In this document: positions 5,472-54,750 of the stretch, in pieces
Layout: each line of letters opens with the position of its first letter
Position numbering within the stretch: the first letter of the stretch is position 1
Assembly: GCA_964352085.1 (NCBI GenBank)
Contig: CAYGPN010000009.1
Location: forward strand, 44,539 to 108,538
From: an uncultured Gammaproteobacteria bacterium
Lineage (GTDB): Bacteria > Cyanobacteriota > Vampirovibrionia > LMEP-6097 > CAYGPN01
Length of the DNA: 64,000 nt
Direction: 5' to 3'
Position numbers and translations under genes: made by a program
The notes under the pieces: generated by a model
The model's database searches: none
Told to the model about the DNA's origin: nothing
What the model saw: only the letters and a program-made list of their open reading frames with translations

Positions 5472-6113
5472 CTAGTTAATTCTTTGAGAAGAGTCTGGCT
5501 GTTTTTTAATTCCAGGGATAGGAGCTTTTCCTTCCTTGACAGCTTTAGCTTGAGCTCTAATTTTCTCTACTTCTTCTTTAGGTTGAATCTTAAGAACAGT
5601 TACATCATAAAGAAGATCTTTACCAGCTAAAGGGTGATTGTAATCAAGAGTAATTTCTTTATCTGTTACTTTAACTACTTTTACAGGAAGAGTAACAGGT
5701 TTGCCGTTAGCATCTCTCTGATTAGCTGTAATAAACTGACCAGGCTCTACATTTAGCTTGGTGAATCTCTCATCTTTAGGCACAGTAACTACTTTAGTCT
5801 CATCAACTTCACCATAAGCATCTTTAGCTTTCAGGCTAATTTTCTTTTTAGCGCCTTCAGCCATACCAGTGATTTTCTTTTCGAAAGCCGGCAAAATTTG
5901 ATTTGCACCAACTACGATATTTAAAGGATTTTTACCAACGTTAGAATCAAATGTCTCTTTAGAATCTTGATAAATTCCTGTGTATTCAAGAGAAACTAAA
6001 GCGCCTTCGCTAACTTTAGGACCCTTAGCGCAAGAAGCTAAAAAGATCGAAACAAGACAAAATGTACTAACCAACTTAATAATATTTTTCATCATAATAA
6101 TAATATTACCCAA
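5472..6113 (-). CDS. FKBP-type peptidyl-prolyl cis-trans isomerase, lipoprotein.
   Basis: Lipobox LASC, and an FKBP domain signature FDSNVGKNPL...ILPAFEKKITGMAEGAKKKISL...AYG. The true start is probably the internal MKNIIKL. Confidence 0.7.
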   Translation of the reverse strand: MGNIIIMMKNIIKLVSTFCLVSIFLASCAKGPKVSEGALVSLEYTGIYQDSKETFDSNVGKNPLNIVVGANQILPAFEKKITGMAEGAKKKISLKAKDAYGEVDETKVVTVPKDERFTKLNVEPGQFITANQRDANGKPVTLPVKVVKVTDKEITLDYNHPLAGKDLLYDVTVLKIQPKEEVEKIRAQAKAVKEGKAPIPGIKKQPDSSQRIN

Positions 6114-8565: not shown

Positions 8566-9240
8566 TTGAGCACTTATAAGTGCATACACGCAGGCTATAA
8601 AGCGGGGGAGCTTAAAATGACATCAATAAATAACGCTGCTGGCAGCGCTGATACGAACACGCCAAAAACACAAGTAGTAGATCCAGCAGAGGCACAAAGA
8701 CAAGCTGAAAATCAAAAAAAGCAAGAGGCTGCAAAAAAATTAATTAAACTAATTAAGACTGGACAATTAGGTTTCGAGGGCGCTGACCCACTTGGCTCAA
8801 GTTCAGTAAAACTTTTAATAGAAACTGATAACGACAATCTACTTAAATTTCAAAATATTCAAATTGATGCTGACCTTAGTGGCTCAAATATAGTTGAAGC
8901 TAATTTTAAGGGCGCAAATCTTGAAGATGCAAATTTAGAAGAAGTTAATGCAAATAATGCTGATTTTAGTGGCGCCAATCTTCAGGGCACTAATCTAGAT
9001 GAGGCTAAAGTGGCAGGAGCTAAATTTATAGGCGCAAATTTAAAAAACATTGATGCTGCCAATATCGAAATTCCAGGGGCTGATTTTAGTGATTGCGAAC
9101 TTGATGATTCAAACTTAAATGGAAGCAATCTCTCAAAAAGCTCATTTAGATTTGCTAGAGGAAGAAATATCAGACTCAATGATGCTAATTTATCAAATTC
9201 AGATTTAACAGGTATTGATCTTAAGTGGTCCAGGATCTAG
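8566..9240 (+). CDS. Pentapeptide-repeat protein, N-terminal fragment; the frame is disrupted at about 9225-9240.
   Basis: Long run of A(D/N)LxxxNLxxA pentapeptide repeats; terminates at 9240 while the repeat pattern continues in the +1 frame. Confidence 0.5.
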   Translation: MSTYKCIHAGYKAGELKMTSINNAAGSADTNTPKTQVVDPAEAQRQAENQKKQEAAKKLIKLIKTGQLGFEGADPLGSSSVKLLIETDNDNLLKFQNIQIDADLSGSNIVEANFKGANLEDANLEEVNANNADFSGANLQGTNLDEAKVAGAKFIGANLKNIDAANIEIPGADFSDCELDDSNLNGSNLSKSSFRFARGRNIRLNDANLSNSDLTGIDLKWSRI

Positions 9241-10444
9241 TTTACAACGCACAGATCTAAACAAATCAAAACTTAATGGAGCTAACTTTAAAGAAGCTGA
9301 TTTATCAAACACAGAGCTAAGTCATGTTGAAGCAAAAAGGTCAGACTTTAATAAAGCTAAGCTCAATAATGTAAATGCAGCAAAGATAGACTTAACTGAA
9401 GCTGAGCTAAATGAGGCTAGTTTAAAAAAGGCTAAATTAACTGATGCAAACCTAAGTAGAGCTGAGTTTAACAATGCAAATCTAAGTGAAGCCAGTCTAT
9501 ATAAAGCAAAGGCTCTAGCTGCAGAGTTTAATGGCGCAAATCTATTTAAAGCAAACTTAAATGACACAGATTTATCAGAAGCTGAATTTAAAGATGCTAA
9601 TATGCAAAATTCAAGCTTGAACAACAGCATTGTTGAAAATAGTGATTTTAGTGGCGCTAATCTTAGCAAGTCTCAACTATATAATTTGCAAAGTAAAAAA
9701 CCTGTGACTTTCAAAAGAGCAGGCTTATTCAATACTGAGATCGCTGTTAGTGAGACTTCTAAAGAAAGTGTCTTTGATATGAGAGGAGCTAATTTGGCAG
9801 GAGCAACTATTAACTTGGGTCCTAATAATCAAAGAATACACCTAGCCAAACTTGATGGTGCTTCACTTATAAACACTAACTTTGTACACAGACCATTAAA
9901 AGTTTCTCTCAATGGAGCTTACTTAAGAGCCAATAAAGCAAGCAAAGATGCATTAAGATCTCTAATCTCTATTGCTAAAGCAAATAAATCTTTAAGAGCT
10001 ACTCGCATAGTAGTAAAAGATCTAAATGATCCTGTTGCTTCAAGTACTGTAAATCTACCAAACGGTTTTAGCTTTAGTGAAACAGGCGCTATCCCTGTTT
10101 TAGAAACTGACTGGTCAGAGCTTAATCTTATGGGCACAGACTTTAGTGCAGCTGATAATGACGAGTTGATTTATCCACTCAATAACGCAATCGTTAAAGA
10201 CTCACTTTTAAGAAACGCTATTTTCAAAGGTATAAATTTAGCTGAAGCTTTAGACTTATCAAAAATGAGCTTTGCTCCAGATAGCTGGCAAGGAGCTGAT
10301 ATGCGCGGGGCTATCAATGTGCCAGAACAGTTTTTAGAACTTGGGATTATTCATGATGAAAGCACTAAATGGCGAAGGCAGGGTGGTAGCGACAGAGATC
10401 GCAGGCTTCGTGAGCGCGAAGGACATTCTGGTACCTTCCGCTAA
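9215..10444 (+). CDS. Pentapeptide-repeat protein, C-terminal part; probably the same gene as 8566-9240 after a frameshift.
   Basis: The track ORF begins at a TTG inside the end of the previous ORF. The pentapeptide repeat periodicity resumes immediately (TDLNKSKLNGANFKEADLSNTELS…). The C-terminal ~230 aa are non-repetitive. Confidence 0.5.
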   Translation: MILSGPGSSLQRTDLNKSKLNGANFKEADLSNTELSHVEAKRSDFNKAKLNNVNAAKIDLTEAELNEASLKKAKLTDANLSRAEFNNANLSEASLYKAKALAAEFNGANLFKANLNDTDLSEAEFKDANMQNSSLNNSIVENSDFSGANLSKSQLYNLQSKKPVTFKRAGLFNTEIAVSETSKESVFDMRGANLAGATINLGPNNQRIHLAKLDGASLINTNFVHRPLKVSLNGAYLRANKASKDALRSLISIAKANKSLRATRIVVKDLNDPVASSTVNLPNGFSFSETGAIPVLETDWSELNLMGTDFSAADNDELIYPLNNAIVKDSLLRNAIFKGINLAEALDLSKMSFAPDSWQGADMRGAINVPEQFLELGIIHDESTKWRRQGGSDRDRRLREREGHSGTFR

Positions 10445-11282: not shown

Positions 11283-11618
11283 CTATTCCATGAAAAGATT
11301 TTTAAAAGTATCGTAGTTAGCATCAACTATATCTTCAGTTGCATAAAGTTCATTAAGATCCTTGCCTTCTTTATGAAGATCTCTAAGAGTGCTCACTAGA
11401 TTCTCTCTAATATCAGGAGAATTTTCTATAGTATCAAGCACATTTTCAAACTGAGCCTGCATTTCACCAAAACTCATATCAGCGTAGCTAGATAAAACGC
11501 TGTCATCTTTATCAGCTTCACTAATAAATTTCCTAGCTTTTTTGATTTTGCGTTTTTTAATTAAACTAGCAACAAAGCTATAAGCAAGAAGCTTATTTGC
11601 ATCTTCATGTGATCCCAT
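11283..11618 (-). CDS. Hypothetical 111-aa protein.
   Basis: ORF with coding periodicity, followed downstream by a hairpin terminator at 11742-11766. No motif recognised. Confidence 0.35.
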   Translation of the reverse strand: MGSHEDANKLLAYSFVASLIKKRKIKKARKFISEADKDDSVLSSYADMSFGEMQAQFENVLDTIENSPDIRENLVSTLRDLHKEGKDLNELYATEDIVDANYDTFKNLFME

Positions 11619-11741
11619 TTTTTACCCCACCTGAGTCTCAAACCCTGATATTAAAGTTATCGGTGACTTTCCCTATTAACTAGAGCTAATGTCTCTAGAT
11701 TTAATCTTTCCTTAGATCCCACTCAAATAAAGCAAAAGAAA

Positions 11742-11766
11742 AGCCAAGGACAATGTCCTTGGCTTA
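11742..11766. terminator. Hairpin terminator (aagccaaggaca-atg-tccttggctt).
   Basis: 11-bp near-perfect stem immediately downstream (minus-strand sense) of the FKBP gene at 11796-12314. Confidence 0.5.
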
Positions 11767-11795: not shown

Positions 11796-12314
11796 TTAGT
11801 TTTTAGCTTTAACTTTTTTTGCTTTTTCGATCTTAACAAGCTCAATATCAAAGATCAAATCTTTGCCAGCAAGCATATGGTTAGCATCGATAAAAACTGA
11901 TTTTTCAGTAACTTTAACCACTTTAACTACAACAGCACCACCAGCAGTTTGCATAGTTAGCTTAGAGCCAAGTTCAGCTTCAACTCCTGCAGGAAGCTGA
12001 GTCTTAGGTATTTCAAAAACTTTTGTTTGATCGATTAGTCCATAAGCTTCAGCTGAAGGGATAGTTATAGTCTTTTTCTCTTTTTTAACCATGCCAATTA
12101 TTCCAGCATCAAAACCTTTTATCATTTGACCAGCACCAGCTGTAAAAGTAAGTGGGTCTTTGCCAACGTTAGAATCAAAAACTCTTCCATCTGCTAGTCT
12201 TCCAGTGTAAATAACTGAAACAGAATCGCCGCTCTCAACCAACTTTTTTGCCATAACAGGGGCAAGAGTAGTTAGCATTAGAGCAAGAACTAATAATTTT
12301 GTAATTTTATTCAT
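11796..12314 (-). CDS. FKBP-type peptidyl-prolyl cis-trans isomerase, secreted.
   Basis: Signal peptide, and an FKBP signature FDSNVGKDPLTFTAGAGQMIKGFDAGIIGM...AYG. Second FKBP paralog in the window. Confidence 0.7.
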   Translation of the reverse strand: MNKITKLLVLALMLTTLAPVMAKKLVESGDSVSVIYTGRLADGRVFDSNVGKDPLTFTAGAGQMIKGFDAGIIGMVKKEKKTITIPSAEAYGLIDQTKVFEIPKTQLPAGVEAELGSKLTMQTAGGAVVVKVVKVTEKSVFIDANHMLAGKDLIFDIELVKIEKAKKVKAKN

Positions 12315-12354: not shown

Positions 12355-14181
12355 TTAACGAATAACGCCAGCAATATCTGCAACGAATTCTCTAGATATA
12401 GAATCAAAACCAGTAGTATTAATGTATTCAACATTTACTGAATTGGTAGCTTGATTAAGAGTAAGTCTTAAATTAGCTTTTGTAATATCAACCGCCGCGC
12501 CATCAACTAGTGGTGTAGGAGCGCCTATACCAAAATCAACAGTATTGTTTACTAGATTAACTTTAAGCGGGCATGGAGCAAAGTTATTAAACTTAAGTTC
12601 TCTAGCATCTGCGCCAAAAGCAATAGTATGAACTCTGTTTGCTTGAACTGCATCATTCGGATCAATTGTAAACTTATCAGTATTTAAAAGACCTTGATTA
12701 AGAATCACTGAGCCATTAGTACCCATTGCTGTTAACTCGCCGTTATTGTTTGTGATGTTTATATTATTAGGAGGGTTATTTCCACTTGTATCAGAAATTG
12801 TAACGTTGTTAGTAGTCACGTTATTTCCAACTGGAGTAATAGGCTGACCATTAACAATTAGTGTTCCAGGAATAACAACTGTAGGTGCTGGTGGATTACC
12901 GTTTTGACCATCACTACCAAGAACAATTTGATTGTCAGCTGTCGTAGTAGCGCCTGCTCCAATCGCTGTAGAGTTGTCATTCGATGCCGTAGCGCCTGCT
13001 CCAACTGCTGTTGAGCCCGTGCCTGATGCTGTAGCTGCTGAGCCTAGTGCTGTAGAGTTAGTGCCTGACGCTGTTGCACCATTGCCACCTAAAAGAGTAC
13101 TTGTTAAACCAGTACCAGCTCCAACATTAACGCCAGCAACCGACAAAGTTGTTGCCACTGTTGCAGCGCCTGTTGTATCTAAAGTAGTTACTGTTGCAGC
13201 AGCTGGGTTAGTTCCACCAATAACGGTGTTATCGATAGTACCGCCATCAATGTCTGCTGTAGTTGCTGTAAGGCTTGCTGTATTGCTTGATGTTGATGTC
13301 AAAGCACCAGCATTAGTTGTAGTAGCTGTAAGTGTTGTGAAGCTAGCATTAGCTGGAGTGTTTGCACCAATTACAGAATTATCAATACTAACGCCAGTTA
13401 AAGAACCACCTGTGATTGCAACATTAGATGAAGAAATTCCACCAGTAAAAGATGCGCCTGTAATTGCGCCTGTTACAGCAAGGTTACCGCTTGCATTTAA
13501 AGTTTCAGCAACTATTAAAGAACCGTTTACTGTAGTTGTGTTTCCAGCTGTTCCAATTGAGTTTAAATTATCTGCTGTTGTGATGTTTGGCTGAAGAGCA
13601 GCTACAGAAAGGTCTGGAGTCGTTGTACCATTAGTTACTGTAATAGAAGCGTCAGCTGAAGCTACAGAAGTGACTGAACCTCCTCCTCCACCGCCGCCAG
13701 CGTTAGCTTGAAAACTAGGAGCACTAACACCATTAGAAGTAAGAATCTGACCAGCTGTTCCGGGACCCACTAAAACAGGAGCGCCAGTATTATCAAAAGC
13801 AATTATTTGACCAGCTTGAAGAATATTAGTAGCAAAGTCAACTGCTTCAATATTAGTTAAAGCGTTACCAGTACCATTTGCGTCAAATGAAATATTAGTT
13901 AAAGGACCTTGGAAAAGAAAAGGATTACCTTCAAAAGTAAGAACACCATTAGCAGTATCAATAGTACCTAAACCATCAGCAATTGCTGCATCAGGTAATT
14001 GAAATGCTGTAGCCGAAAAACCATCTGGCGCATTTGAATTATCAAGCGTTGTTCCACCTGGTCCAGCAATGTTTTGCTGAAGCGTTGCATTGGCTGGCGC
14101 TGATACTAAAGTCAGTGACAGTATTGTTGACAGCAGAAAGCCACCAAATTTCTTATTTTGATTCTTTTTCATAATATTCAT
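12355..14181 (-). CDS. Secreted fibre/adhesin-like protein with phage tail-fibre-type repeats (GGxIDNxxIG…FTTL) and YadA-head-like NSTAxG repeats.
   Basis: Likely start is MNIMKKNQNKK at 14181 (GGGGAAAGGA RBS), with a signal peptide ending …VSAPANA. The track ORF extends further upstream to 14304. Gly7 run; repeats ITGGSLTGVSIDNSVIGANTPANASFTTL and IDGGTIDNTVIGGTNPAAATVTTL; NSTALGSAATASGTGSTAVGAGATASNDNSTAIGAGA. Confidence 0.55.
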   Translation of the reverse strand: MNIMKKNQNKKFGGFLLSTILSLTLVSAPANATLQQNIAGPGGTTLDNSNAPDGFSATAFQLPDAAIADGLGTIDTANGVLTFEGNPFLFQGPLTNISFDANGTGNALTNIEAVDFATNILQAGQIIAFDNTGAPVLVGPGTAGQILTSNGVSAPSFQANAGGGGGGGSVTSVASADASITVTNGTTTPDLSVAALQPNITTADNLNSIGTAGNTTTVNGSLIVAETLNASGNLAVTGAITGASFTGGISSSNVAITGGSLTGVSIDNSVIGANTPANASFTTLTATTTNAGALTSTSSNTASLTATTADIDGGTIDNTVIGGTNPAAATVTTLDTTGAATVATTLSVAGVNVGAGTGLTSTLLGGNGATASGTNSTALGSAATASGTGSTAVGAGATASNDNSTAIGAGATTTADNQIVLGSDGQNGNPPAPTVVIPGTLIVNGQPITPVGNNVTTNNVTISDTSGNNPPNNINITNNNGELTAMGTNGSVILNQGLLNTDKFTIDPNDAVQANRVHTIAFGADARELKFNNFAPCPLKVNLVNNTVDFGIGAPTPLVDGAAVDITKANLRLTLNQATNSVNVEYINTTGFDSISREFVADIAGVIR

Positions 14182-14230
14182 TTTCCTTTCCCCGTTATTC
14201 ATTCGATTTCTCCCCCTCACATTTAACTGT

Positions 14231-15652
14231 CTATTGAAGGACCTCCGTGCTGTAAACAGCAACTGGTGATTGTGGTGTAAACACTCCTGGGAATGATTCA
14301 ACATTAACTAAATTAAGAACACCATTTGCTATAAAAACTCTAAGAAGCATATCTTGAACTAAAAGTGATGTTCCAAGAGATGTTGGAGCTGTATTTAAGT
14401 TTGTTACTTGAGCTGTTAGAGGCAATTTAACATTAACCGGATTTCCGTTAGTATCTAATCCAATGATTAATTGCTCGTTGTTTAAAAGAACACCATTAGT
14501 AATAGTGATTCTTCTAGCAATTGCATTTGCACCATTGATGTTATTCAATGGAGTATTGAAAGCAACTGGATTAGTGTTAAGTGCTAAAGATTGTGTTTCG
14601 TTGTTTGTAACTGGATTATTATTTCCACCACCAGCAATTACACAATCACCAACATCTAAAGTACCGTTCCCATTCTGATCAGTAATTCCAGGAGCATCAA
14701 AACAATTTGCACCAGCTGCACCAGGAGCGCCTGTACCACCACTAGGACCAGCAGGACCAGGAGTTCCAGCACCACCAGAACCGCCGCCGCCTGTTACTAA
14801 AAGTGTTAAAGCTGCTTCAGAATTACTAGTGTTACCAAAAACTTGATTTGTGTCTGTTGCAAAGTAAATTGTTCCAGGAGCTACAGTCGCCGGTCTTTGT
14901 GCTGCTGTACCTGAAAGGAAATTTGTGCCACCTGTTGGATTAACTATTTCATTTTGAACGTTAATTACTCTACCTCTTAGCTTACTTGTTGTATTTTTAC
15001 CAGTAGCCTTAAAGTGAATATCAAATCTAGATCCTTCATCAGTCATTCTTGGAACAACACCATTAAATTTTGAAGGCACCATAGCCATCATCAAATGGTT
15101 AGGAAGTTTTCTAGCTATCTCGATGATCTGCTCATCGTTAAAATTATTTGTAAGTGCTGGACCACTAACATCAGAAACTGAAAGGTTACCATCTGGGAAA
15201 AATGTACCTGTAAAGCGTTCAACTGTTTTTCCGTTTTCACCAAGTAGAGTGAATTCATATTGGTTGCCAGACTGTCTTAGCCCCTTGAGAAGACCTCTAA
15301 CAACAATGTTATTTTTCTTAGAAGCTTTTACTGAAAAATCACCAACATTAATTTTAGAACCGTCATCCAAAATTTCTTTTACTTCAACAACAGGAACACT
15401 ATTTTCTGGAAGTCTAAGATTTTTTGCTCTTCTGATAACAAACTTTACTTGAGCTTCATCAGTACCATTAGCCTTTACAATGTTGTCTCTACCAACAAAT
15501 TGAAGTAAAACTCTTTGATCGTCCGGCACGCCGTTATTAGTTTGTAAGCCTTGAATACCTAGATCGATTACTCTTCTTGCAGAAGCTGGGCTAATTGCTA
15601 GGCCTGCGATGAGCGTGAAACTTAGAATTATAGATTGGAACTTTTTAAACAT
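14231..15652 (-). CDS. Secreted protein with a collagen-like Gly-X-Y segment and one Cys-bracketed DxNGNG calcium-binding-like motif.
   Basis: Signal peptide MFKKFQSIILSFTLIAGLAISPASA; GGGGSGGAGTPGPAGPSGGTGAPGAAGA followed by CFDAPGITDQNGNGTLDVGDC. Confidence 0.55.
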   Translation of the reverse strand: MFKKFQSIILSFTLIAGLAISPASARRVIDLGIQGLQTNNGVPDDQRVLLQFVGRDNIVKANGTDEAQVKFVIRRAKNLRLPENSVPVVEVKEILDDGSKINVGDFSVKASKKNNIVVRGLLKGLRQSGNQYEFTLLGENGKTVERFTGTFFPDGNLSVSDVSGPALTNNFNDEQIIEIARKLPNHLMMAMVPSKFNGVVPRMTDEGSRFDIHFKATGKNTTSKLRGRVINVQNEIVNPTGGTNFLSGTAAQRPATVAPGTIYFATDTNQVFGNTSNSEAALTLLVTGGGGSGGAGTPGPAGPSGGTGAPGAAGANCFDAPGITDQNGNGTLDVGDCVIAGGGNNNPVTNNETQSLALNTNPVAFNTPLNNINGANAIARRITITNGVLLNNEQLIIGLDTNGNPVNVKLPLTAQVTNLNTAPTSLGTSLLVQDMLLRVFIANGVLNLVNVESFPGVFTPQSPVAVYSTEVLQ

Positions 15653-15862
15653 TTTTTAGTCATCTCCTGTTTTGTTGGCCAGAATTAATTATATGAAATC
15701 CTTATATACATTCTGTCCAAATAAGAATGATTCTCAATAGCCAATCCTAGCTTTTTCACGTATTACGTGTCAACTGTCTAAAGAGACTATCTTTTCAAAG
15801 CTAATAGCAGCCTATAGACTTGCTATAGACTTTTATATTTTATTCAAGATTAAAAGGCTTCT

Positions 15863-16912
15863 TTATTTACCAAAGACATCCCAACTAAAAGTTAGCGGTC
15901 CTGCAAAAACAGGGCTATATCCAGGCTGATTATCAGCCAATCTTTGTAAAACAAATCTATACTGACCGCCACCTAAATCTTCAACACCATAAAGAATATT
16001 TCCATTAGTGTTCGGTACTACTCCTAAAGTTGTTGTTGGGTCACCACCCGTAGCATTTTGGAAGCCAACATTTATAGATTTATTTGGGAAGTTAAACCTA
16101 AACTGCGGAGAGGTATTATCTGAGACAGCATACTCTAAAGTTTTACCTGCAAGCGCGCCAGCTGGAAACGACAAAGCTGTTGTAGTATTCACTTCTCTTA
16201 AAACTGGGTTGGTTGGGTCTGCTTCAGCTGGCATCACAAGCTCAACTGTTGCTATGTAGCGAGAACCAACTTGATCAAATGTAGCTGCTTCACCAGAGGC
16301 AGTTGCATCTCCAAGACCAGTAAGCTTATTAGAACCCATAACAATATTACCGCCCATAGTAAGTCCTGTTAAAGTACCCACGCTAGTTATATTTGGCTGA
16401 GCTGCTGTTTGAACAGTACCTGTTAAATCACCAATAAAGCTTGTTGCTGTAGCTGTGCCAGTCGTTACAAAATTTCCATCTGAATTAATTGCTCCTATAT
16501 TTAATTCACCAGCAGGTCCCCTTTGAGGAACAGTATTTGGTTGATTGGCAAATACACCAGTAGCTACAGCATTACCATTTACACTTAAAACACCAGATGT
16601 TGTGATATTTAAATTTGTTGTATTAATGTCTAAATTACCAGCAGCATTCTTAGAGAATGTAATAGGGTTTGCGCTATCTTCACCAATTTGTAAAAGTGGT
16701 TCAATCGGCACAATTGCATTTGGGTTACCAACTAAAACAAATCTTTTACCTGTTGAAACATCAGTGGTATCTTGCTCACCTGCTTTATAGAACTGAATGA
16801 AAGTAGCATGAGCTGGCATTGCAGTCATAAAGATTGCAAAAACAAATAATAAAGAAGCTAGAGCTCTAGCGAGTCCTTTTTTCATATTTAGTTTTTCTTC
16901 TCTTCTTATCAT
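15863..16912 (-). CDS. Secreted phage tail-fibre-like protein.
   Basis: Signal peptide …MPAHA. Motif GSNKLTGLGDATASGEAATFDQV matches the conserved tail-fibre collar motif (SNKxTxLxxGTxxxDAVNxxQL type). Thr/Gly/Asn-rich beta-rich sequence. Confidence 0.55.
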   Translation of the reverse strand: MIRREEKLNMKKGLARALASLLFVFAIFMTAMPAHATFIQFYKAGEQDTTDVSTGKRFVLVGNPNAIVPIEPLLQIGEDSANPITFSKNAAGNLDINTTNLNITTSGVLSVNGNAVATGVFANQPNTVPQRGPAGELNIGAINSDGNFVTTGTATATSFIGDLTGTVQTAAQPNITSVGTLTGLTMGGNIVMGSNKLTGLGDATASGEAATFDQVGSRYIATVELVMPAEADPTNPVLREVNTTTALSFPAGALAGKTLEYAVSDNTSPQFRFNFPNKSINVGFQNATGGDPTTTLGVVPNTNGNILYGVEDLGGGQYRFVLQRLADNQPGYSPVFAGPLTFSWDVFGK

Positions 16913-16922
16913 CCATTCAACC

Positions 16923-19025
16923 TTATGGTAAGTAACTTAAATTCAGGACATGTATGTAGAAACCTAAGCCTAAATCTAATCCTCTAAAGACAATCACATC
17001 TGAGCCTGTATCCTTATAGAAAGCCAAGCCCATATTAGTAAAGTTTGGCGCTGCAGAGCTTGCGTTACCAGCTGCAAAGACTGGCGAGCCTGTGTACTGG
17101 AAGCCTGTAATATCGCCTGTTCCATTAAAGAATATAGTCAAGTTTTGGAATGGCACAGTATTATCATTTATAACAACTCTTGTAACATTCACAGCGGCTA
17201 TCATCGGTGCTAGCGCTAATGTAGCTGGAGTATTTGCTCCTGTTGCAGGTATATTAACAATCTCAGTAGTTAAAGTAGTGTTTGATTCATTATTATCTGT
17301 TGGTCCTGAACAACCTGGATCTAATAAATCAACTAAAGTATCACCATCATTATCTAAAAGATCACTACACTGAGGACTAGACTCTGATGGGTCAGTAGGT
17401 CCACTACATCCCGGATCTACTAAATCAATAGCGCCATTACCATCATTATCAGCTCCATCCTGACACTGTTTAAATTCATTATCATTAGCATTTGCGCAGC
17501 CAGTATCAGCAGGGAAATCAACTAAACCATCAGCGTCATTATCAATACCATCCTGACATTGGTTTACAACATTAAATTCATTATTATCTGATGGTCCCGT
17601 GCAACCCGGATCAGCAGTATCTATTAAACCATCTCCATCATTATCTATTCCATCACTACATGCGGGATTCGGTGGCTCAAACTCAGAGTTGTCATTAGCA
17701 CTTGTACAACCATTATCAGCAGGAAAATCTATCAAACCATCTCCATCATTATCAGCACTATCGCTACATTCAGGCAGTGGATTAAACTCATCATTATCTG
17801 TAGCACTTGAGCATCCTGTATCAAGAGGAAAATCAATTAGGCCATCTCCATCATTATCAACAGTATCTTGGCAAGCAGGAAGAACAGAAGTACCAGGATC
17901 ACCTGCTGGTCCTGCTGGTCCTGCTGGTCCAGAAGCGCCACCTTGGCTCATTAACACATGCTCCCAAGAACCATCTGCTTCTAGTTTTCTACTAAAATAA
18001 ACATCGGTGTCTTGCCCTTGAGCGAAAATTGCAGCACTTAGAGCGCTAGTTCCTGTTAAAGAACTTGAACTTAAACTTGTGATCAATGGATCATCAAAAT
18101 TATCTGGACTTCCACCTCTACTAACAACAGTAATAAAACCATTACCTTCAGCAGTTGTTCTATAAATATCACGATCAAGTGGAGTACCAACTCCAAGTAT
18201 GCTTGTACCTTGAATTATTGTGCTGCCCTCTCCAGTGTTAACTACAAGCTTTCCTTTTTTCAAAGACTTGATTAACCTTTTTTTATTTGGAATGTCAAAG
18301 AAAACACCATCAGGATTTCTTGGGTTAATAGAAACACCAGGAGTCTTTGAAGTTCTCAGCATTAAGTTTGGATCGCGCCATAAACTATCTCTAAACTTTC
18401 TAAAAAGAGTGCTTTCTTCTGTCGTCATATCAGCAACAGTTGGCGGCAACTCAAGTTCACTAATCATTGGAACACTATCCTCTATTACTCTTTTTGCAGC
18501 CATAGCAGGGAGCTCAAATTTAAATTTCTCTCCTCTCTCTCCAATCAAATAAAGATTCATAGCTTCTTCTTGTTGATCGTAAGGAATCGGGATACGGAAA
18601 GTAACTCTTTTTGCAACAGGTCCATTTTTACCTTTATCTGCTTTTCTAATTGGAATCGGGAAAGTGACTTTAAATCTAAATTCTTCTTTTATCGAACCAT
18701 CAATTTGTGGCACAGGCTCGTAGCCCATCGCATTCACATAAGTTCTTGTCGTTGCATTTTCTGGACCTACTAAACCATTAAGGTCTACTTGAAGAGGGAC
18801 TACTGCTACATTGGTTGAACTAACAAAAGTTCTTTCAACATCTTTGCGTCGTAACTTAACTCGAGGCTGCGACAAAGAGCCAGTGTCATCACCATCAGAA
18901 GATTGAATGGTGACGAACCTCGAGGCCTTTGTTGCCGCAAAAACTTCTTCGCCAGTGAAAAAATTCACTAGACATATAATGATTAGTGCTGCAAGTATGC
19001 GGTGCACAAGTTTAGACATTGTCAC
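16923..19025 (-). CDS. Secreted 700-aa protein with a collagen-like GPAGPAGPAGDPG segment followed by seven Cys-bracketed CxDxxDNDGDGLIDFPxDxGC repeats resembling thrombospondin type-3 calcium-binding repeats.
   Basis: Signal/TM N-terminus. Repeats ACQDTVDNDGDGLIDFPLDTGC, ECSDSADNDGDGLIDFPADNGC, ACSDGIDNDGDGLIDTADPGC, QCQDGIDNDADGLVDFPADTGC, QCQDGADNDGNGAIDLVDPGC, QCSDLLDNDGDTLVDLLDPGC and more. First gene of the minus-strand cluster. Confidence 0.55.
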   Translation of the reverse strand: MTMSKLVHRILAALIIICLVNFFTGEEVFAATKASRFVTIQSSDGDDTGSLSQPRVKLRRKDVERTFVSSTNVAVVPLQVDLNGLVGPENATTRTYVNAMGYEPVPQIDGSIKEEFRFKVTFPIPIRKADKGKNGPVAKRVTFRIPIPYDQQEEAMNLYLIGERGEKFKFELPAMAAKRVIEDSVPMISELELPPTVADMTTEESTLFRKFRDSLWRDPNLMLRTSKTPGVSINPRNPDGVFFDIPNKKRLIKSLKKGKLVVNTGEGSTIIQGTSILGVGTPLDRDIYRTTAEGNGFITVVSRGGSPDNFDDPLITSLSSSSLTGTSALSAAIFAQGQDTDVYFSRKLEADGSWEHVLMSQGGASGPAGPAGPAGDPGTSVLPACQDTVDNDGDGLIDFPLDTGCSSATDNDEFNPLPECSDSADNDGDGLIDFPADNGCTSANDNSEFEPPNPACSDGIDNDGDGLIDTADPGCTGPSDNNEFNVVNQCQDGIDNDADGLVDFPADTGCANANDNEFKQCQDGADNDGNGAIDLVDPGCSGPTDPSESSPQCSDLLDNDGDTLVDLLDPGCSGPTDNNESNTTLTTEIVNIPATGANTPATLALAPMIAAVNVTRVVINDNTVPFQNLTIFFNGTGDITGFQYTGSPVFAAGNASSAAPNFTNMGLAFYKDTGSDVIVFRGLDLGLGFYIHVLNLSYLP

Positions 19026-19202: not shown

Positions 19203-19646
19203 ATGAATACTAGAAAGTTTAGCCTTTATATAGCCGGATTAATCTGGGCGCTTGTCGGCGTGAGAATAGGCATGAGGGCTGTAAACTGGCTCACACCCTA
19301 CTTCGATCCACCTAGCTGGCAGTTAATTTTCATCGTTTTATCAGTAATTGTAGGTATATTCAAGGCCAAGAAAGTACTTAGCAAGTCGGTCAAAAGAGGC
19401 ATAGAAAATTCAGATAGTCTAGATGATAGACCTCTCAACTATTTGATTGGCTGGCTTAAGCTCTATGGCCTACGTGGTGTAATTATAGTTTTATTGATGA
19501 TTGGGCTAGGATTTTTCTTGCGGGCCCTAAGATCTATGGGCTTTGATACTTACAATATCTTTGGATTTTTATATCTAGCGGTATCTTTTGGGTTAATAAT
19601 GGCATCAACCTTTTACTTCAAAGCAGCCGCTGAGCTTAAAGACTAG
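19203..19646 (+). CDS. Small hypothetical inner-membrane protein with 3-4 TM helices.
   Basis: Hydrophobic helices IAGLIWALVGVRIGM, LIFIVLSVIVGIF, VIIVLLMIGLGFFL, LYLAVSFGLIMA. Confidence 0.4.
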   Translation: MNTRKFSLYIAGLIWALVGVRIGMRAVNWLTPYFDPPSWQLIFIVLSVIVGIFKAKKVLSKSVKRGIENSDSLDDRPLNYLIGWLKLYGLRGVIIVLLMIGLGFFLRALRSMGFDTYNIFGFLYLAVSFGLIMASTFYFKAAAELKD

Positions 19647-25375: not shown

Positions 25376-26533
25376 TTATAAAACAGTAGCTAGCCTAGAC
25401 CAATGGCTAGTTTGAACATTATCAGAAATTTGAAAGGCTTCTTCCTTATTACAAAGCAAATAAGCTTTGGAATCTGGCTTAAGCTTCACAAAAGCCTCTA
25501 AAGATTTTCCATATTCTTTTTTTGGTGTTGCTGTGAGTTTCACTTCTGTTGCTATCACTTGCCCTTTATACTCAATTATAAAATCAACCTCTAAACCATT
25601 ATTGTCTCTAAAAAAATATATGCTTGGTTTTTTTCCTTGATGGTTAAAGAACTTAACAAGCTCACTTAAAACCAATCCCTCAAAAAGAGCTCCAGACATT
25701 GGTCCTTTTTGTATTTGCTCTTCACTTGCGTGCCCTGTAAGATGGCTTACTATTCCTGGATCCAAGAAATATAATTTTTGAGATTTCACTATACGCTTAC
25801 CTAAATTATTATGGTATGGAGGCACCAGATAAATTAATTGGCTTTTTTCTAATAAGGCAATCCAAGACTGAACTGTTAATTTGCTTACACCAAGCTCTTT
25901 TGATAGAGAAGCAAAATTCAATTCCTGAGAACTTCTTAGAGCTATTAATTTTATAAACTGGTCATAAACTTTTATATGCTCTTTTTTTATATTTGCTCTT
26001 ATATCCTTATTTAAAATTGTGTCAATGTAAGAATCAAACCATAATGTTCTATCCATTTCTTTAATATTAGGTTCTGGATACAATCCTTTAAGTACGATTT
26101 TAGACCAAAGTGGCACTTCTTTTGAATACAATTCTTGAACAGAGAAAGGATTTAAAGATAGAACAGCCATGCGCCCAGCAAGGCTTTCATGAACATCAGC
26201 CATTAGGTTAAATTGCTGCGATCCAGTAAGAACAAAAGCTCCTTCTTTTTGCTCATTATCAACTTTCTTTTTTATATATGAAAGTAAGTCAGGGGCGTTT
26301 TGAATTTCATCTATAATAAGCGGGCATTCATTATATTTTAAAAACAAGTCGGGGTCTTCATTTGCTTGCCTGCGTGTTTCTATATCATCCAAGCTCACAT
26401 AGTTATATTCTGGCAATATCGCTTTTAAAAGCGTAGATTTGCCAGACTGCCTAGCACCAGTTAATAAAATCACTTTAAACTGAGCGATTGCTTTTTTGAG
26501 AATATTTGAAAGATCTCTCTTAAAATATGGCAC
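25376..26533 (-). CDS. AAA+ ATPase of the COG1373/DUF4143 type with a C-terminal PD-(D/E)xK-like segment (paralog 1).
   Basis: Walker A TGARQSGKST, Walker B LIIDEIQ, and C-terminal …GLEVDFIIEYKGQVIATEVK. Confidence 0.6.
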   Translation of the reverse strand: MPYFKRDLSNILKKAIAQFKVILLTGARQSGKSTLLKAILPEYNYVSLDDIETRRQANEDPDLFLKYNECPLIIDEIQNAPDLLSYIKKKVDNEQKEGAFVLTGSQQFNLMADVHESLAGRMAVLSLNPFSVQELYSKEVPLWSKIVLKGLYPEPNIKEMDRTLWFDSYIDTILNKDIRANIKKEHIKVYDQFIKLIALRSSQELNFASLSKELGVSKLTVQSWIALLEKSQLIYLVPPYHNNLGKRIVKSQKLYFLDPGIVSHLTGHASEEQIQKGPMSGALFEGLVLSELVKFFNHQGKKPSIYFFRDNNGLEVDFIIEYKGQVIATEVKLTATPKKEYGKSLEAFVKLKPDSKAYLLCNKEEAFQISDNVQTSHWSRLATVL

Positions 26534-32582: not shown

Positions 32583-33713
32583 ATGCATATAAACCGGGCT
32601 CTTAAAGTAGAGATAATCAGCAAGCTTAAAGATAGTAATAAAATAATCATCTTATATGGCCCCAGACAGATTGGTAAGACCACCCTGGCTAACAGGGTCA
32701 TTGAGGATCTTGGTTTTAGAACCTTAAGCATTAATGCTGATGAGCTTAAATATAATGAGATTCTTTCCAGTCGCGATTTAACTAAGCTCAAATCTTTAGT
32801 AAGCGGTTATGAATTGCTTTTTATAGATGAGGCACAAAGAATAAAAGATATAGGCATTAACCTAAAAATCCTTAAGGATAATTTAGCTGATTTGAAAATT
32901 ATAGTCACAGGTTCCTCAACTTTAGATTTAGCAAATGAACTAAAAGAACCTTTAACAGGAAGAACCTGGACCTATAATCTTTATCCAATATCTTTCCTTG
33001 AGTTGAAAGAGCATTTTAATGACTTTGAACTAAAAGAACAGCTAGAAGAGAAAATGATCTTCGGTCTTTACCCTGAGCTTTTTAGTATCGAAAACAGAGA
33101 AGAAAAAATTCAATATCTTGAAGAAATCAGCAGGTCTTATTTATATAAAGATGTCTTGGAGATTTCAAATATTAAGCATTCTTATAAGCTTAGAGATCTT
33201 CTTAAGTTGCTAGCTTTTCAGATAGGCTCAGAAGTCTCTCTCAATGAGCTTGGCAGACAATTAGATATGTCTAAAGAAACAGTAGCTAATTACATTAATC
33301 TTCTTGAGAAATCTTTTGTACTTTATAGATTGAGTGGTTTGAGCCGTAATCTTAGAAAAGAAGTCTCTAAAATGGATAAGATTTATTTTTATGATCTTGG
33401 TATAAGAAACATTCTTATAGATAATATGAAAGATCTTAAAGATAGAGATGATAAAGGAAAGCTTTTTGAGAATTTCTTAGTTATAGAACGTTTAAAACGA
33501 AATAAATACACAGCAAATTACTGTTCAGAGTATTTCTGGAGAATATATACTGGCGCTGAATTGGATTATGTAGAAGATAAAGATGGCAAATTTTCTGCTT
33601 ATGAATTTAAGTTTGCTAAAGAAAAAGCTAAAGTACCACAATCATGGCAAGAGGCTTATTCGGGTTCTTTTGAGCTTATTAATAAGGATAACTTCTTAGA
33701 ATTTATTCGCTAA
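32583..33713 (+). CDS. AAA+ ATPase of the COG1373/DUF4143 type with a C-terminal PD-(D/E)xK-like segment (paralog 2).
   Basis: Walker A YGPRQIGKTT, Walker B LLFIDEAQ, and C-terminal GAELDYVEDKDGKFSAYEFK. Confidence 0.6.
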   Translation: MHINRALKVEIISKLKDSNKIIILYGPRQIGKTTLANRVIEDLGFRTLSINADELKYNEILSSRDLTKLKSLVSGYELLFIDEAQRIKDIGINLKILKDNLADLKIIVTGSSTLDLANELKEPLTGRTWTYNLYPISFLELKEHFNDFELKEQLEEKMIFGLYPELFSIENREEKIQYLEEISRSYLYKDVLEISNIKHSYKLRDLLKLLAFQIGSEVSLNELGRQLDMSKETVANYINLLEKSFVLYRLSGLSRNLRKEVSKMDKIYFYDLGIRNILIDNMKDLKDRDDKGKLFENFLVIERLKRNKYTANYCSEYFWRIYTGAELDYVEDKDGKFSAYEFKFAKEKAKVPQSWQEAYSGSFELINKDNFLEFIR

Positions 33714-43312: not shown

Positions 43313-43321
43313 AGTTATATT

Positions 43322-44533: not shown

Positions 44534-45032
44534 TATTTGTTTCTTGAATTTTTTTTGGAATTAATCTGGATTTGGCATTGCCATAGCTCATCCTTAATAT
44601 ATATTCCCTTCCTGTAATAGAGTCTTGGATTTCTATATGCCTTCCAAAGCCTAGCTTAATGTCTTTGATGATAAGCCTTTCAGTGAGTTTGTCGCCTTTG
44701 TTATAGGCTACAGGGATGATAAACATATCGCCAGCTCTTAGGCTGTTTGATCTAGCTATAGCTGCTTTAACTGTGCCTTGTGATCTGAAAATAGATTTTA
44801 CGTAAAATTCTGTTTCTTCGGGCATTATGCTCTTATCTACTAAAGTGTAATAAACAGGTTTTGTATTTGTAGTTTCTTCTTCGATTTTTTCTTCACTAGC
44901 TTTTTTCTCTTCAACTTGTTTTTCTTCAAGTTTTTGAGCAGCTTCTTCTTTTATTTCTTCTGCAAAAGCAAAAGTGCTCGCATTAAATACGATTAAAAAA
45001 CTTATTAAAAGAAGTGCTGATTTCTTCATCAC
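44523..45032 (-). CDS. Small secreted Glu/Lys-rich protein, co-oriented immediately upstream of the protease pair.
   Basis: Signal peptide MMKKSALLLISFLIVFNASTFAFA, an acidic linker and a C-terminal ~90-aa domain. Overlaps the next gene by 11 bp. Confidence 0.4.
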   Translation of the reverse strand: MMKKSALLLISFLIVFNASTFAFAEEIKEEAAQKLEEKQVEEKKASEEKIEEETTNTKPVYYTLVDKSIMPEETEFYVKSIFRSQGTVKAAIARSNSLRAGDMFIIPVAYNKGDKLTERLIIKDIKLGFGRHIEIQDSITGREYILRMSYGNAKSRLIPKKIQETNNET

Positions 45033-54648: not shown

Positions 54649-54750
54649 GAGCTTAAGATATAGCTGAAAACCCTCGGTTTTAAGGGGTTTTTGACTATTT
54701 TTATCAAATTATATATAGCCCTTTCTTTTTATTAAAGGAGAGAGGGATAA

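What the first reader, a model, noticed from the sequence alone, without database searches (positions are those of the whole stretch)
12355..19025. Four-gene cluster of signal-peptide-bearing phage-tail-fibre-like / collagen-like fibre proteins with no phage structural genes.
Four consecutive minus-strand genes all start with Sec signal peptides. They combine features normally seen in Caudovirales tail fibres and trimeric adhesins. Collagen-like GPAGP runs occur in 14231-15652 and 16923-19025. The tail-fibre collar motif GSNKLTGLGDATASGEAATFDQV occurs in 15863-16912. Tail-fibre repeats of the GGTIDNTVIGGTNPAAATVTTL type and YadA-head-like NSTA(I/L)G repeats occur in 12355-14181. No capsid, terminase, sheath, baseplate or integrase gene is present in the window. 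This looks like a chromosomally encoded set of secreted trimeric fibres, of the kind described for predatory-bacterium prey-recognition fibres or R-type-pyocin-independent adhesins, rather than a prophage. An FKBP prolyl isomerase gene lies immediately downstream (11796-12314). It could assist folding of proline-rich collagen-like segments; this link is my inference.
Basis: partly seen in the sequence, partly recalled or inferred. Interest (0 to 1): 0.7.

Follow-up and report, generated by a model that had tools for sequence, protein, structure and literature searches.

The report
Secreted fibre-protein gene cluster in Melainabacteria
Four neighbouring genes in an uncultured non-photosynthetic relative of cyanobacteria encode exported fibre-like proteins; they form two copies of a gene pair, are kept in a few related genomes, and are most likely cell-surface attachment fibres rather than a leftover virus.

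Summary

The cluster is not four unrelated fibres. It is two copies of a two-gene module:
- **Collagen-like genes:** P4 and P2 are paralogues (hhalign 99.5%, E 3e-22). They share an unrecognised ~300-aa N-domain, a short Gly-X-Y run, Cys-bracketed DxDxDG calcium-type loops (6 in P4, 1 in P2) and a C-terminal beta-rich domain.
- **Fibre-like genes:** P3 and P1 each follow a collagen-like gene. They carry the QPNITSVGTL phage-fibre repeat, a neck motif shared by trimeric autotransporters and T7 gp17, and YadA-head repeats (P1, Pfam 1.9e-11).

The host is Melainabacteria-like. The same P4-P3-P2-P1 order recurs in a relative at 28-50% identity. Partial or rearranged versions lie at the same chromosomal site in three more. 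Three other relatives carry a phosphofructokinase gene there instead. No phage structural gene is in the window, so a prophage is very unlikely.

All four proteins are near-orphans in billions of sequences. Trimer formation, surface display, adhesion and the FKBP link remain inferred, because AlphaFold2 failed. I rate it a new variant of a known kind (chromosomal mosaic secreted fibres), of moderate interest.

The parts
16923..19025 (-). P4 = collagen-like protein A (CLP-A), 698-700 aa. The likely true start is the ATG at 19019. Layout: signal peptide; N-domain at 17940-18935; Gly-X-Y run at 17886-17939; six Cys-bracketed DxDxDG loops at 17310-17873; C-terminal beta-rich domain at 16926-17273.
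   Evidence: ORF. Repeats by regex. Teneurin-2 C-rich region 6cmx at E 2.9e-4. Orthologues: L012 715 aa (37% identity, E 4e-137), and L016 596 aa (E 2e-38). Start codon and ribosome-binding site.
15863..16912 (-). P3 = fibre-like protein A (FLP-A), 349 aa. Layout: signal peptide; variable N region; QPNITSVGTL fibre repeat plus neck motif at 16268-16510; conserved C-terminal domain at 15866-16267.
   Evidence: PHROG tail fibre 1.2e-8. Near-orphan apart from the repeat. Orthologues: L009 partial (40-45% identity, E 3e-43) and L016 375 aa (E 1e-30). The family profile matches the BadA head, VompD, phage Gp44 and gp9, and the T7 gp17 N-terminus at the neck motif, E 1e-3 to 0.5. The L016 orthologue hits YadA_stalk at 4.8e-5 and Phage_T7_tail at 5.9e-4, both below the curated cutoffs.
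15653..15862 (-). 210-bp spacer between the two gene pairs. It holds a promoter-like site (TTGACA, 18 nt, TAGGAT) at 15773-15744 and an AGGAG ribosome-binding site before P2.
   Evidence: This is a consensus match only: promoter-like sites are not enriched over shuffles in the region (18 found, 23.5 expected).
14231..15652 (-). P2 = collagen-like protein B (CLP-B), 473 aa. Layout: signal peptide; N-domain at 14786-15577; Gly-X-Y run of 9 triplets at 14705-14785; one Cys-bracketed loop, CFDAPGITDQNGNGTLDVGDC, at 14639-14704; C-terminal domain at 14234-14623.
   Evidence: An exhaustive phmmer search of 1.84 billion representatives found a single full-length relative, P0095 (30% identity, E 1.7e-9). 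Paralogy with P4: hhalign 99.5%, E 3e-22 over 321 columns. The C-domains align at 68% probability, E 5e-5. No Pfam or PDB sequence match for the N-domain.
12355..14181 (-). P1 = fibre-like protein B (FLP-B), 608 aa (615 aa if it starts at 14202). Layout: signal peptide; conserved N-terminal ~215 aa at 13459-14100, which includes a QPNIT motif; two GGxIDNxVIG repeats; YadA-head repeats at 12892-13113; unique C-terminal ~170 aa.
   Evidence: Pfam YadA_head 1.9e-11. PDB BpaC 3.8e-13 and Hep_Hag 8.6e-9. No YadA_anchor and no Peptidase_S74. Near-orphan. The L016 partial orthologue is 50% identical over 222 N-terminal residues and then diverges. The N-terminus of the L010 partial is also similar (E 2e-6).
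11796..12314 (-). FKBP172, a signal-peptide-bearing FKBP prolyl isomerase with a ~45-aa insertion. It is a possible folding helper; its membership of the unit is inferred.
   Evidence: FKBP_C 2.8e-21 spanning aa 25-160 for a 94-position profile. It is 42% identical to the backbone lipoprotein FKBP213 at 5472-6113, and FKBP213 rather than FKBP172 is the orthologue of the FKBP next to SLT in L014. The gap after P1 is 40 nt with no terminator-like site.
11741..11765 (-). Terminator-like hairpin (11-bp stem with 6 G-C pairs, followed by a T-run), the probable end of the transcription unit.

Best explanation
**What it is.** The locus is a lineage-specific accessory island of a Melainabacteria (Vampirovibrionia-like) subclade. 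It consists of two tandem copies of a two-gene module.
- **Collagen-like protein (CLP; P4 and P2).** Each has a signal peptide, a conserved novel ~300-aa N-domain, a pre-collagen GTxYxATDxxxFxxxxxGxW motif, a short Gly-X-Y run, one to six Cys-bracketed DxDxDG calcium-type loops and a ~120-aa C-terminal beta-rich domain.
- **Fibre-like protein (FLP; P3 and P1).** Each is assembled from modules otherwise seen in phage tail fibres and trimeric autotransporter adhesins.

**Proposed mechanism (inferred).**
1. The proteins are exported by Sec.
2. They fold and trimerise in the periplasm, possibly helped by the adjacent exported FKBP.
3. They reach the cell surface by an unidentified route.
4. There they form fibres a few tens of nanometres long. 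A conserved end holds the fibre on the cell. The calcium loops, collagen segment or YadA-head repeats stiffen the shaft. A distal domain binds a target on another cell or surface.

Functionally they would work like Bdellovibrio MAT fibres or like non-anchored YadA-type and collagen-like adhesins.

**Shown:** gene structure, export signals, module content, P2/P4 paralogy, conserved gene order, patchy distribution, absence of phage genes.
**Inferred:** trimers, surface location, adhesion, the FKBP role.
For: - **Genes and signals.** ORFs and signal peptides are.
- **Modules.** YadA_head 1.9e-11 and BpaC 3.8e-13. Tail-fibre PHROG 1.2e-8. The neck motif matches TAA heads and phage fibre N-termini. 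The teneurin-type calcium-binding Cys-rich motif scores 2.9e-4. The Gly-X-Y run is present in all 10 family members, and phage tail-fibre PHROGs match it in 5 of them.
- **Paralogy.** P2 and P4 families align at 99.5% probability, E 3e-22.
- **Conservation.** L016 has the same P4-P3-P2-P1 order. L009 keeps P3 followed by P2. L012 has the P4 orthologue at the same site. L010 and L013 have CLP-CLP-FLP at the same site.
- **Rate of change.** Cluster proteins are 28-50% identical between the window and L016, against 57-60% for the flanking membrane protein and S1.
- **Mosaic pattern.** The P1 N-terminus is conserved and its distal part is replaced.
- **Accessory distribution.** The island is absent, with a PFK gene in its place, in L014, L015 and L017.
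- **Chromosomal context.** Housekeeping genes surround it and no phage genes were found.
- **Host.** The best named S1 hits are Melainabacteria and Cyanobacteria MAGs. NuoN is closest to cyanobacterial NdhB.
Against: - There is no structural evidence. AlphaFold2 gave mean pLDDT 29.8 for P2 and 37.2 for P3.
- No outer-membrane anchor, lipobox, autotransporter barrel, S74 chaperone or known sorting signal was found. How the proteins would leave the periplasm is therefore unknown.
- The Gly-X-Y runs of the window proteins (6 and 9 triplets) may be too short for a stable triple helix on their own.
- The neck-motif and teneurin matches are only marginally significant.
- The family is known from about six metagenomic contigs, most of which break inside the cluster.
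- No expression or localisation data exist.
Confidence: 0.55

Rival explanations
1. The proteins are structural envelope or matrix fibres rather than adhesins. They would form a hair-like nap, sheath, S-layer-associated or extracellular-matrix layer (compare the BclA nap on Bacillus exosporia). Their role would be protection or spacing rather than target recognition.
For: - The collagen-like segment plus C-terminal domain architecture resembles BclA-type proteins.
- Calcium-type loops are common in envelope proteins.
- The N- and C-domains of the CLPs are conserved rather than hypervariable.
- The C-terminal domain of the P3 family is conserved at 34-45% identity.
Against: - The distribution among close relatives is patchy, which is unusual for a core envelope layer.
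- YadA-head and phage-fibre modules are typically binding or shaft elements of adhesins.
- The distal part of P1 is swapped between relatives, as in receptor-binding fibres.
Confidence: 0.2
2. The proteins are secreted effector-type or bacteriocin-like proteins that use phage-fibre receptor-binding modules to target other cells. They would be released rather than retained on the producer.
For: - They have Sec signals with no detectable anchor.
- Phage-derived receptor-binding modules are present.
- The locus is a fast-evolving accessory locus.
Against: - No toxin, enzyme or immunity domain was found in any of the four proteins or their immediate neighbours.
- The CLP N-domain is conserved, as expected for a retention or assembly domain.
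Confidence: 0.08
3. The cluster is the remnant of a prophage, tailocin or contractile injection system, whose tail-fibre genes survive while the rest has decayed or lies outside the window.
For: - Tail-fibre PHROG hits are found in P3 and in CLP orthologues.
- Proteins that share the P3 repeat carry Phage_tail_C, End_tail_spike, T4_gp9_10_N and Peptidase_S74 domains.
Against: - All four proteins and all orthologues carry signal peptides, which virion fibres lack.
- No phage structural, integrase or lysis gene lies within 64 kb.
- The same gene order is kept at 28-50% identity in a relative, flanked by the same housekeeping genes.
- The flanks are the same housekeeping genes in genomes with and without the island.
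Confidence: 0.04
4. The ORFs are low-complexity sequence whose motif resemblances are compositional coincidences.
For: - The composition is rich in Thr, Ala, Gly and Asn.
- Most homology hits cover only 6-30% of each protein.
- The four proteins show no significant pairwise BLAST similarity to each other.
Against: - Full-length orthologues exist with conserved order.
- The YadA_head hit lies above the Pfam gathering score.
- Profile-profile paralogy between the P2 and P4 families reaches 99.5% probability.
Confidence: 0.01

Closest known systems
Bdellovibrio bacteriovorus MAT (mosaic adhesive trimer) fibre superfamily (Caulton et al. 2024, PMC10769870)
   Same: - Both are chromosomal, not prophage-borne.
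- Both have a Sec signal peptide.
- Both are built from phage-tail-fibre-like modules.
- Both have one conserved end and a variable remainder (P1: N-terminus 50% identical, distal part replaced).
- Both occur as several paralogues, some at nearby loci.
- In both, the route to the surface is unknown.
   Different: - No sequence similarity to any Bdellovibrio protein was detected.
- There is no S74 domain.
- Half of the proteins here (the CLPs) have a large novel N-domain, a Gly-X-Y run and calcium-type loops, an architecture not described for the B. bacteriovorus MATs. One MAT-like protein listed from another predator, a Saprospiraceae bacterium, has a collagen-like tip.
- The strict pairing of a CLP gene with an FLP gene is not a MAT feature.
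- The host is Melainabacteria, a group absent from the paper's list of MAT-bearing lineages.
Trimeric autotransporter adhesins (YadA, BadA, BpaC; Hep_Hag)
   Same: P1 has YadA_head repeats above the Pfam threshold and aligns to BpaC and Hep_Hag head structures. The P3 family has a neck-like motif, NRxTGLGxGxxxxDAVTxxQL, that matches the BadA head and VompD.
   Different: There is no C-terminal YadA_anchor beta-barrel and no ESPR extended signal peptide. These proteins therefore cannot autotransport. The repeats occupy only about 70 of 608 residues.
Phage collagen-like tail fibres and bacterial collagen-like proteins (Scl of Streptococcus, BclA of Bacillus)
   Same: - A Gly-X-Y run is preceded by a GxxYxxTxxxxxFxxxxxxW-type motif. 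P0097 and the PHROG tail-fibre families match this region.
- Globular domains flank the run.
- The run length varies between relatives, from 4 to 14 triplets.
   Different: - The runs are much shorter than typical Scl or BclA collagen regions (own knowledge).
- There is no LPXTG motif and no exosporium-targeting motif.
- The N-domain has no Pfam or PDB sequence relative.
- A C1q/TNF-like C-domain is not detected by sequence.
Teneurin C-rich / thrombospondin-type-3-like calcium-binding Cys-bracketed repeats
   Same: P4 has six CxDxxDNDGDGLxDxxDPGC units. The best PDB match is the teneurin-2 C-rich region (6cmx, E 2.9e-4), and isolated calmodulin EF-loops match weakly. P0096 shows the same [Gly-X-Y run + Cys loop] unit four times.
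   Different: The context differs: here the repeats form the shaft between a collagen-like run and a C-terminal domain of a bacterial secreted protein. Calcium binding was not tested.

Membership tests
Trimeric autotransporter adhesin (TAA) | YadA_head / Hep_Hag repeats | tested here: met
   P1 scores Pfam YadA_head 1.9e-11, 44.4 bits against a cutoff of 25. PDB BpaC scores 3.8e-13.
Trimeric autotransporter adhesin (TAA) | C-terminal YadA_anchor beta-barrel translocator | tested here: not met
   None of the four proteins hits PF03895 at E<=0.1. The PDB hits align only to aa 357-432 of P1.
Trimeric autotransporter adhesin (TAA) | Neck or stalk connector | tested here: inconclusive
   The P3-family profile matches the BadA head 3d9x at E 1.3e-3 and VompD at 0.026. 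The L016 orthologue hits YadA_stalk at 4.8e-5, 24.1 bits, below the cutoff of 28.4.
Bdellovibrio MAT superfamily | Sec signal peptide | tested here: met
   Sequence inspection and hydropathy calculation. No dedicated predictor was available.
Bdellovibrio MAT superfamily | Conserved ~130-aa beta-rich N-terminal domain shared with the Bd MATs | tested here: inconclusive
   No Bdellovibrio or MAT protein appeared among the hits of P3, P1 (word-indexed searches) or P2 (exhaustive phmmer). I had no MAT N-domain sequence or structure to compare directly.
Bdellovibrio MAT superfamily | Intertwined trimeric beta-prism or beta-helix shaft | not testable with these tools
   The AlphaFold2 monomer models were unusable, with pLDDT 29.8 and 37.2. 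No multimer prediction was available.
Bdellovibrio MAT superfamily | Mosaic design: one conserved end and a variable tip, either S74 or non-S74 | tested here: inconclusive
   P1 fits the pattern: its N-terminus is 50% identical to the L016 orthologue and its distal part is unrelated. P3 shows the reverse, with the C-domain conserved. No Peptidase_S74 domain was found.
Phage tail fibre (prophage, tailocin or contractile injection system) | Tail-fibre sequence modules | tested here: met
   P3 hits phrog_6942 at 1.2e-8. Its QPNITSVGTL repeat is shared with proteins that carry Phage_tail_C, End_tail_spike, T4_gp9_10_N and S74 domains.
Phage tail fibre (prophage, tailocin or contractile injection system) | Location within a tail, baseplate or virion gene module | tested here: not met
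   Pfam and NCBIfam found no phage structural gene across the 64-kb window. The neighbours of the orthologous loci are housekeeping genes.
Bacterial collagen-like proteins (Scl / BclA type) | Collagen triple-helix repeat region recognised by Pfam PF01391 | tested here: inconclusive
   P2 and P4 have no hit at E<=0.1 and only 9 and 6 triplets. Six of 10 family members match at E<=1, and one (L013, 530 aa) exceeds the cutoff at 29.6 bits against 27.2.
Bacterial collagen-like proteins (Scl / BclA type) | Known anchoring or tip domains: LPXTG, exosporium-targeting N-terminus, or C1q-like C-domain | tested here: not met
   No such Pfam domain was found. The C-domain profile has only a weak FlgE-fragment match at E 1.8e-3.

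The most novel reading that the evidence does not exclude
The locus would encode a previously undescribed two-component surface fibre system specific to a Vampirovibrio-related lineage of non-photosynthetic Cyanobacteriota. The collagen-like/calcium-loop protein and its phage-fibre-like partner would co-assemble or act in tandem as the attachment organelle of an epibiotic predator or symbiont. A dedicated exported FKBP would serve as folding factor. This would be an independent domestication of phage tail-fibre modules, parallel to the Bdellovibrio MAT fibres.
Probability: 0.22. Interest if true: 0.75.

Novelty: new variant of a known kind. Interest (0 to 1): 0.5.

Why it matters
- **Wider spread of the strategy.** Chromosomal, Sec-exported fibres built from phage tail-fibre parts have been characterised experimentally only in Bdellovibrio. 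A conserved but unrelated set in Melainabacteria would show that the strategy arose more than once. It would also give candidate attachment molecules for a phylum whose only cultured member, Vampirovibrio chlorellavorus, attaches to algae through a pad of unknown composition (PMC4451040).
- **A new protein family.** The collagen-like family has a ~300-aa N-domain with no Pfam or PDB sequence relative. Its compact unit of a short Gly-X-Y run followed by a Cys-bracketed calcium-type loop also recurs in an unrelated 707-aa protein (P0096).
- **Limits.** The evidence is sequence-only and rests on about six metagenomic contigs.

Tried and rejected
1. **Direct comparison of the four proteins.** BLASTP and Smith-Waterman with shuffles found nothing significant. 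The P2/P4 relationship appeared only after orthologues allowed profile-profile comparison.
2. **hhalign of the P3 family against P1 and against the CLPs.** No relationship beyond the QPNIT motif.
3. **AlphaFold2.** P2 with a 3-sequence alignment gave mean pLDDT 29.8, and P3 as a single sequence gave 37.2. I ran no fold search, because the matches would be meaningless.
4. **Genome-collection scan with the S1 protein.** It found no close relative among species representatives, so the organism could not be named that way.
5. **Metagenome scan with the P3-family alignment.** It returned 232 relatives, all matching only the fibre-repeat region. None of the 76 loci kept encodes a CLP, P1 or P4 relative.
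6. **Viral-contig scans.** The P4-family alignment matched only the calcium-type repeats in two contigs. The P2-family alignment was too divergent to search with.
7. **PDB profile searches.** The CLP N-domain found nothing (best E 0.05). The C-domain found only a weak FlgE-fragment match (E 1.8e-3), which I do not rely on.
8. **Run accessions.** Searching papers for the sequencing-run accessions found nothing.
9. **The conserved 147-aa membrane protein at 19203-19646.** I considered it as part of the system and rejected it, because it is also present in relatives that lack the cluster.
10. **The weak Terminase_2 hit of the 111-aa ORF.** I rejected it as sub-threshold.

Full report
**1. The observation**

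The four minus-strand ORFs are present at the stated coordinates:

| Name | Coordinates | Length |
|---|---|---|
| P1 | 12355-14181 (ORF open up to 14304; a gene caller on an identical metagenomic contig chose 14202, 615 aa) | 608 aa |
| P2 | 14231-15652 | 473 aa |
| P3 | 15863-16912 | 349 aa |
| P4 | 16923-19025 | 700 aa |

- P4 more probably starts at the ATG at 19019. That ATG lies 6-7 nt after a GGGGAG ribosome-binding site, and the orthologue begins MSKI.
- Each protein begins with a basic stretch, a strongly hydrophobic 12-residue core (Kyte-Doolittle mean 2.3-3.0) and an AxA-type cleavage site. This is inspection, not a dedicated predictor.
- The downstream FKBP has the same kind of signal.
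- All quoted motifs are present.

**2. Module content**

- **P1.** It matches Pfam YadA_head above the curated cutoff (E 1.9e-11, 44 bits against 25). It aligns to the head repeats of BpaC (3.8e-13), a Hep_Hag protein and EibD in the PDB. It lacks the YadA anchor and the S74 chaperone domain.
- **P3.** It matches a phage tail-fibre PHROG (1.2e-8, aa 140-194). Its relatives in a 5.8-billion-protein search share only the repeat TAAQPNITSVGTLTGL. Those relatives carry Phage_tail_C, End_tail_spike, T4_gp9_10_N, Peptidase_S74, or Mtd_N plus C1q domains.
- **The 'collar' motif.** A three-sequence P3-family profile hits the BadA head (1.3e-3), phage Gp44 (2.6e-3), gp9, VompD and the T7 gp17 N-terminal domain at exactly this motif. 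The L016 orthologue gives sub-threshold YadA_stalk and Phage_T7_tail hits. These matches are marginal individually but consistent.
- **P4.** It contains six CxDxxDNDGDGLxDxxDPGC units. Their best PDB match is the calcium-binding C-rich region of teneurin-2 (2.9e-4).
- **P2.** It has one degenerate copy of that unit directly after its Gly-X-Y run.
- **Gly-X-Y runs.** They are short: 9 triplets in P2 and 6 in P4. Neither reaches Pfam Collagen at E<=0.1.

**3. The genes form a duplicated two-gene module**

- The four proteins show no significant pairwise similarity.
- An exhaustive phmmer search of 1.84 billion representatives found one full-length relative of P2 (P0095, 30% identity).
- On its 2.5-kb contig, the gene upstream of P0095 is a P3 homologue (40-45% identity, E 3e-43).
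- I then used the flanking S1 protein to find relatives and read their contigs. This gave 10 members of a collagen-like family.
- A 7-sequence P2-type profile aligns to a 3-sequence P4-type profile with 99.5% probability (E 3e-22) over 321 columns. The alignment runs from the signal peptide to the start of the Gly-X-Y run.
- The C-terminal 130 residues align at 68% probability, E 5e-5.
- P2 and P4 are therefore paralogues with one architecture: signal peptide; N-domain; the motif GTxYxATDxxxFxxxxxGxW; a Gly-X-Y run of 4-14 triplets present in every member; 0-7 Cys loops or another insert; and a C-domain.
- Each is followed by a fibre-like gene, giving the order CLP-A, FLP-A, a 210-bp spacer, CLP-B, FLP-B.

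**4. Conservation and distribution**

The host is Melainabacteria-like:
- The best named S1 hits are 'Candidatus Melainabacteria bacterium' and 'Cyanobacteria bacterium' MAGs at about 50% identity.
- NuoN is closest to cyanobacterial and chloroplast NdhB (278 and 236 bits, against 178 for E. coli).

| Contig(s) | What lies at the site |
|---|---|
| L016 (S1 60% identical) | Same order as the window: P4-like (E 2e-38), P3-like (1e-30), P2-like (8e-8), P1-like (50% identity over 222 N-terminal residues) |
| L012 | P4 orthologue (37% identity, E 4e-137) |
| L010, L013 | CLP, CLP, then a fibre-like gene |
| L014, L015, L017 | Same backbone (148-aa membrane protein, S1, ~190-aa protein, FolB, PabB), but a phosphofructokinase gene where the cluster would be |

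- The cluster is therefore an accessory island of a subclade.
- Its proteins diverge faster than the flanking genes: 28-50% identity against 57-60%.
- In all four relatives that have it, the contig ends inside the cluster. Internal repeats such as those in the L016 P1-like protein probably cause this.
- No paralogue exists elsewhere in the window.

**5. Not a prophage**

- The window carries dnaN, L11/L1, prs, nadC, folE/folB/pabB, an NAD kinase gene, aroA, leuCD, nuoN and a chaperonin gene. It has no capsid, terminase, portal, sheath, tube, baseplate, integrase or lysis domain.
- Virion fibres do not carry signal peptides, whereas all members here do.
- GC content is only slightly above the flanks (0.37-0.40 against about 0.355).

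**6. The FKBP gene**

- FKBP172 lies 40 nt downstream of P1 on the same strand with no terminator-like site between them. A strong hairpin terminator follows it.
- It is an extra paralogue. FKBP213 at 5472-6113, a lipoprotein, is the orthologue of the FKBP next to SLT in a relative without the cluster. FKBP172 is 42% identical to FKBP213.
- This is compatible with a dedicated folding helper, but it could not be checked in relatives because their contigs end too early.

**7. Mechanism**

*Shown:* export signals; modules that are obligate trimers elsewhere (collagen, YadA head, neck; established knowledge of those folds); the conserved pairing; fast evolution; patchy distribution.

*Inferred:* Sec export, periplasmic trimerisation, transfer to the surface by an unknown route, and adhesion through distal domains. 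I put 0.55 on secreted trimeric surface fibres with an adhesive role.

Rivals:
- A structural nap or matrix layer: 0.2.
- Released receptor-binding effectors: 0.08.
- A decayed phage or tailocin: 0.04.
- A low-complexity artefact: 0.01.

**8. Comparison with known systems**

- The locus works most like the Bdellovibrio MAT fibres (PMC10769870). These have a signal peptide, a conserved N-domain, a trimeric phage-like shaft and a variable tip, are surface displayed, and reach the surface by an unknown route.
- Membership is not established. No Bdellovibrio protein appeared in any search. There is no S74 domain. The CLP architecture is not described for the B. bacteriovorus MATs. The paper's list of MAT-bearing lineages has no cyanobacterial relative, although it does include one collagen-like tip in a Saprospiraceae bacterium.
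- The proteins are not trimeric autotransporters, because they have no anchor.
- They are not standard Scl or BclA collagen-like proteins, because they have no known anchor or tip domain and their runs are very short.

**9. What failed**

- AlphaFold2 gave pLDDT 29.8 and 37.2, so no fold comparison was made.
- The CLP N-domain has no Pfam or PDB sequence relative.
- The C-domain has only a weak match to Treponema FlgE fragments (E 1.8e-3).
- Metagenome and viral scans found only the widespread repeats.

**10. Verdict**

- The feature is real, conserved and chromosomal. It is a new variant of a known kind, namely mosaic secreted fibre proteins built from phage, autotransporter and collagen modules.
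- It contains a new protein family and a new paired gene organisation in a little-studied phylum.
- Function and assembly remain inferred.
- Interest 0.5.

Noticed in passing
window 8566-10444 (+): Two adjacent pentapeptide-repeat proteins (224 and 409 aa). They lie about 1.4 kb beyond the FKBP, 111-aa ORF and GATase_3 genes that follow the cluster.
   Followed up: no
window 61271-62851 (-): A chaperonin that scores best against archaeal thermosome/CCT models (thermosome_alpha 2.5e-61) rather than GroEL, although far below the curated cutoffs. A group II-like chaperonin is unusual in a bacterium.
   Followed up: no
window 25376-26533 (-), 32583-33713 (+), 58663-59877 (+): Three paralogous AAA_14 + DUF4143 ATPase genes are scattered through the window. 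A relative (L014) has one next to a Cas1 gene.
   Followed up: no
window 41738-45032 (-): Three consecutive signal-peptide-bearing genes. Two have weak metalloprotease similarity (Reprolysin_2 2e-6; Matrixin 4.5e-4). They may form a secreted protease set.
   Followed up: no
window 49665-56502 (+): Three large consecutive ORFs (498, 1166 and 583 aa) with no Pfam or NCBIfam hit at all.
   Followed up: no
window 11796-12314 (-) and 5472-6113 (-): There are two exported FKBPs, both with a ~45-aa insertion in the FKBP fold (SlyD-like flap?). The 213-aa copy has a lipobox and is the conserved backbone copy. The 172-aa copy next to the fibre cluster is an extra paralogue (42% identity).
   Followed up: partly
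L010, L012, L013, L016 (contig ends): Every related contig that carries the cluster ends inside it. The L016 P1-like protein contains ~70-aa tandem repeats (RVIxDNGGALQxDGLTITLMNANGAILLGPNTVN...), which probably break short-read assemblies.
   Followed up: partly
P0096 (707-aa protein from the P2 search): An unrelated protein repeats the unit [Gly-X-Y run + ANC(F/Y)DxVGDxxGDGTxDxxDC] four times. This is the same collagen-plus-Cys-loop unit seen once in P2, which suggests a reusable structural module.
   Followed up: no
window 14234-14623 and 16926-17315 (CLP C-terminal domains): A 10-sequence profile of the CLP C-terminal domain aligns over its whole length to Treponema flagellar hook FlgE fragments (6ndv, 6ndx) at E 1.8e-3. 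This is a weak and possibly compositional match.
   Followed up: partly
window 11283-11618 (-): A 111-aa ORF downstream of the FKBP gene has a sub-threshold Terminase_2 hit (E 0.014, 16.5 bits against a cutoff of 26.1). I judged it to be chance.
   Followed up: partly
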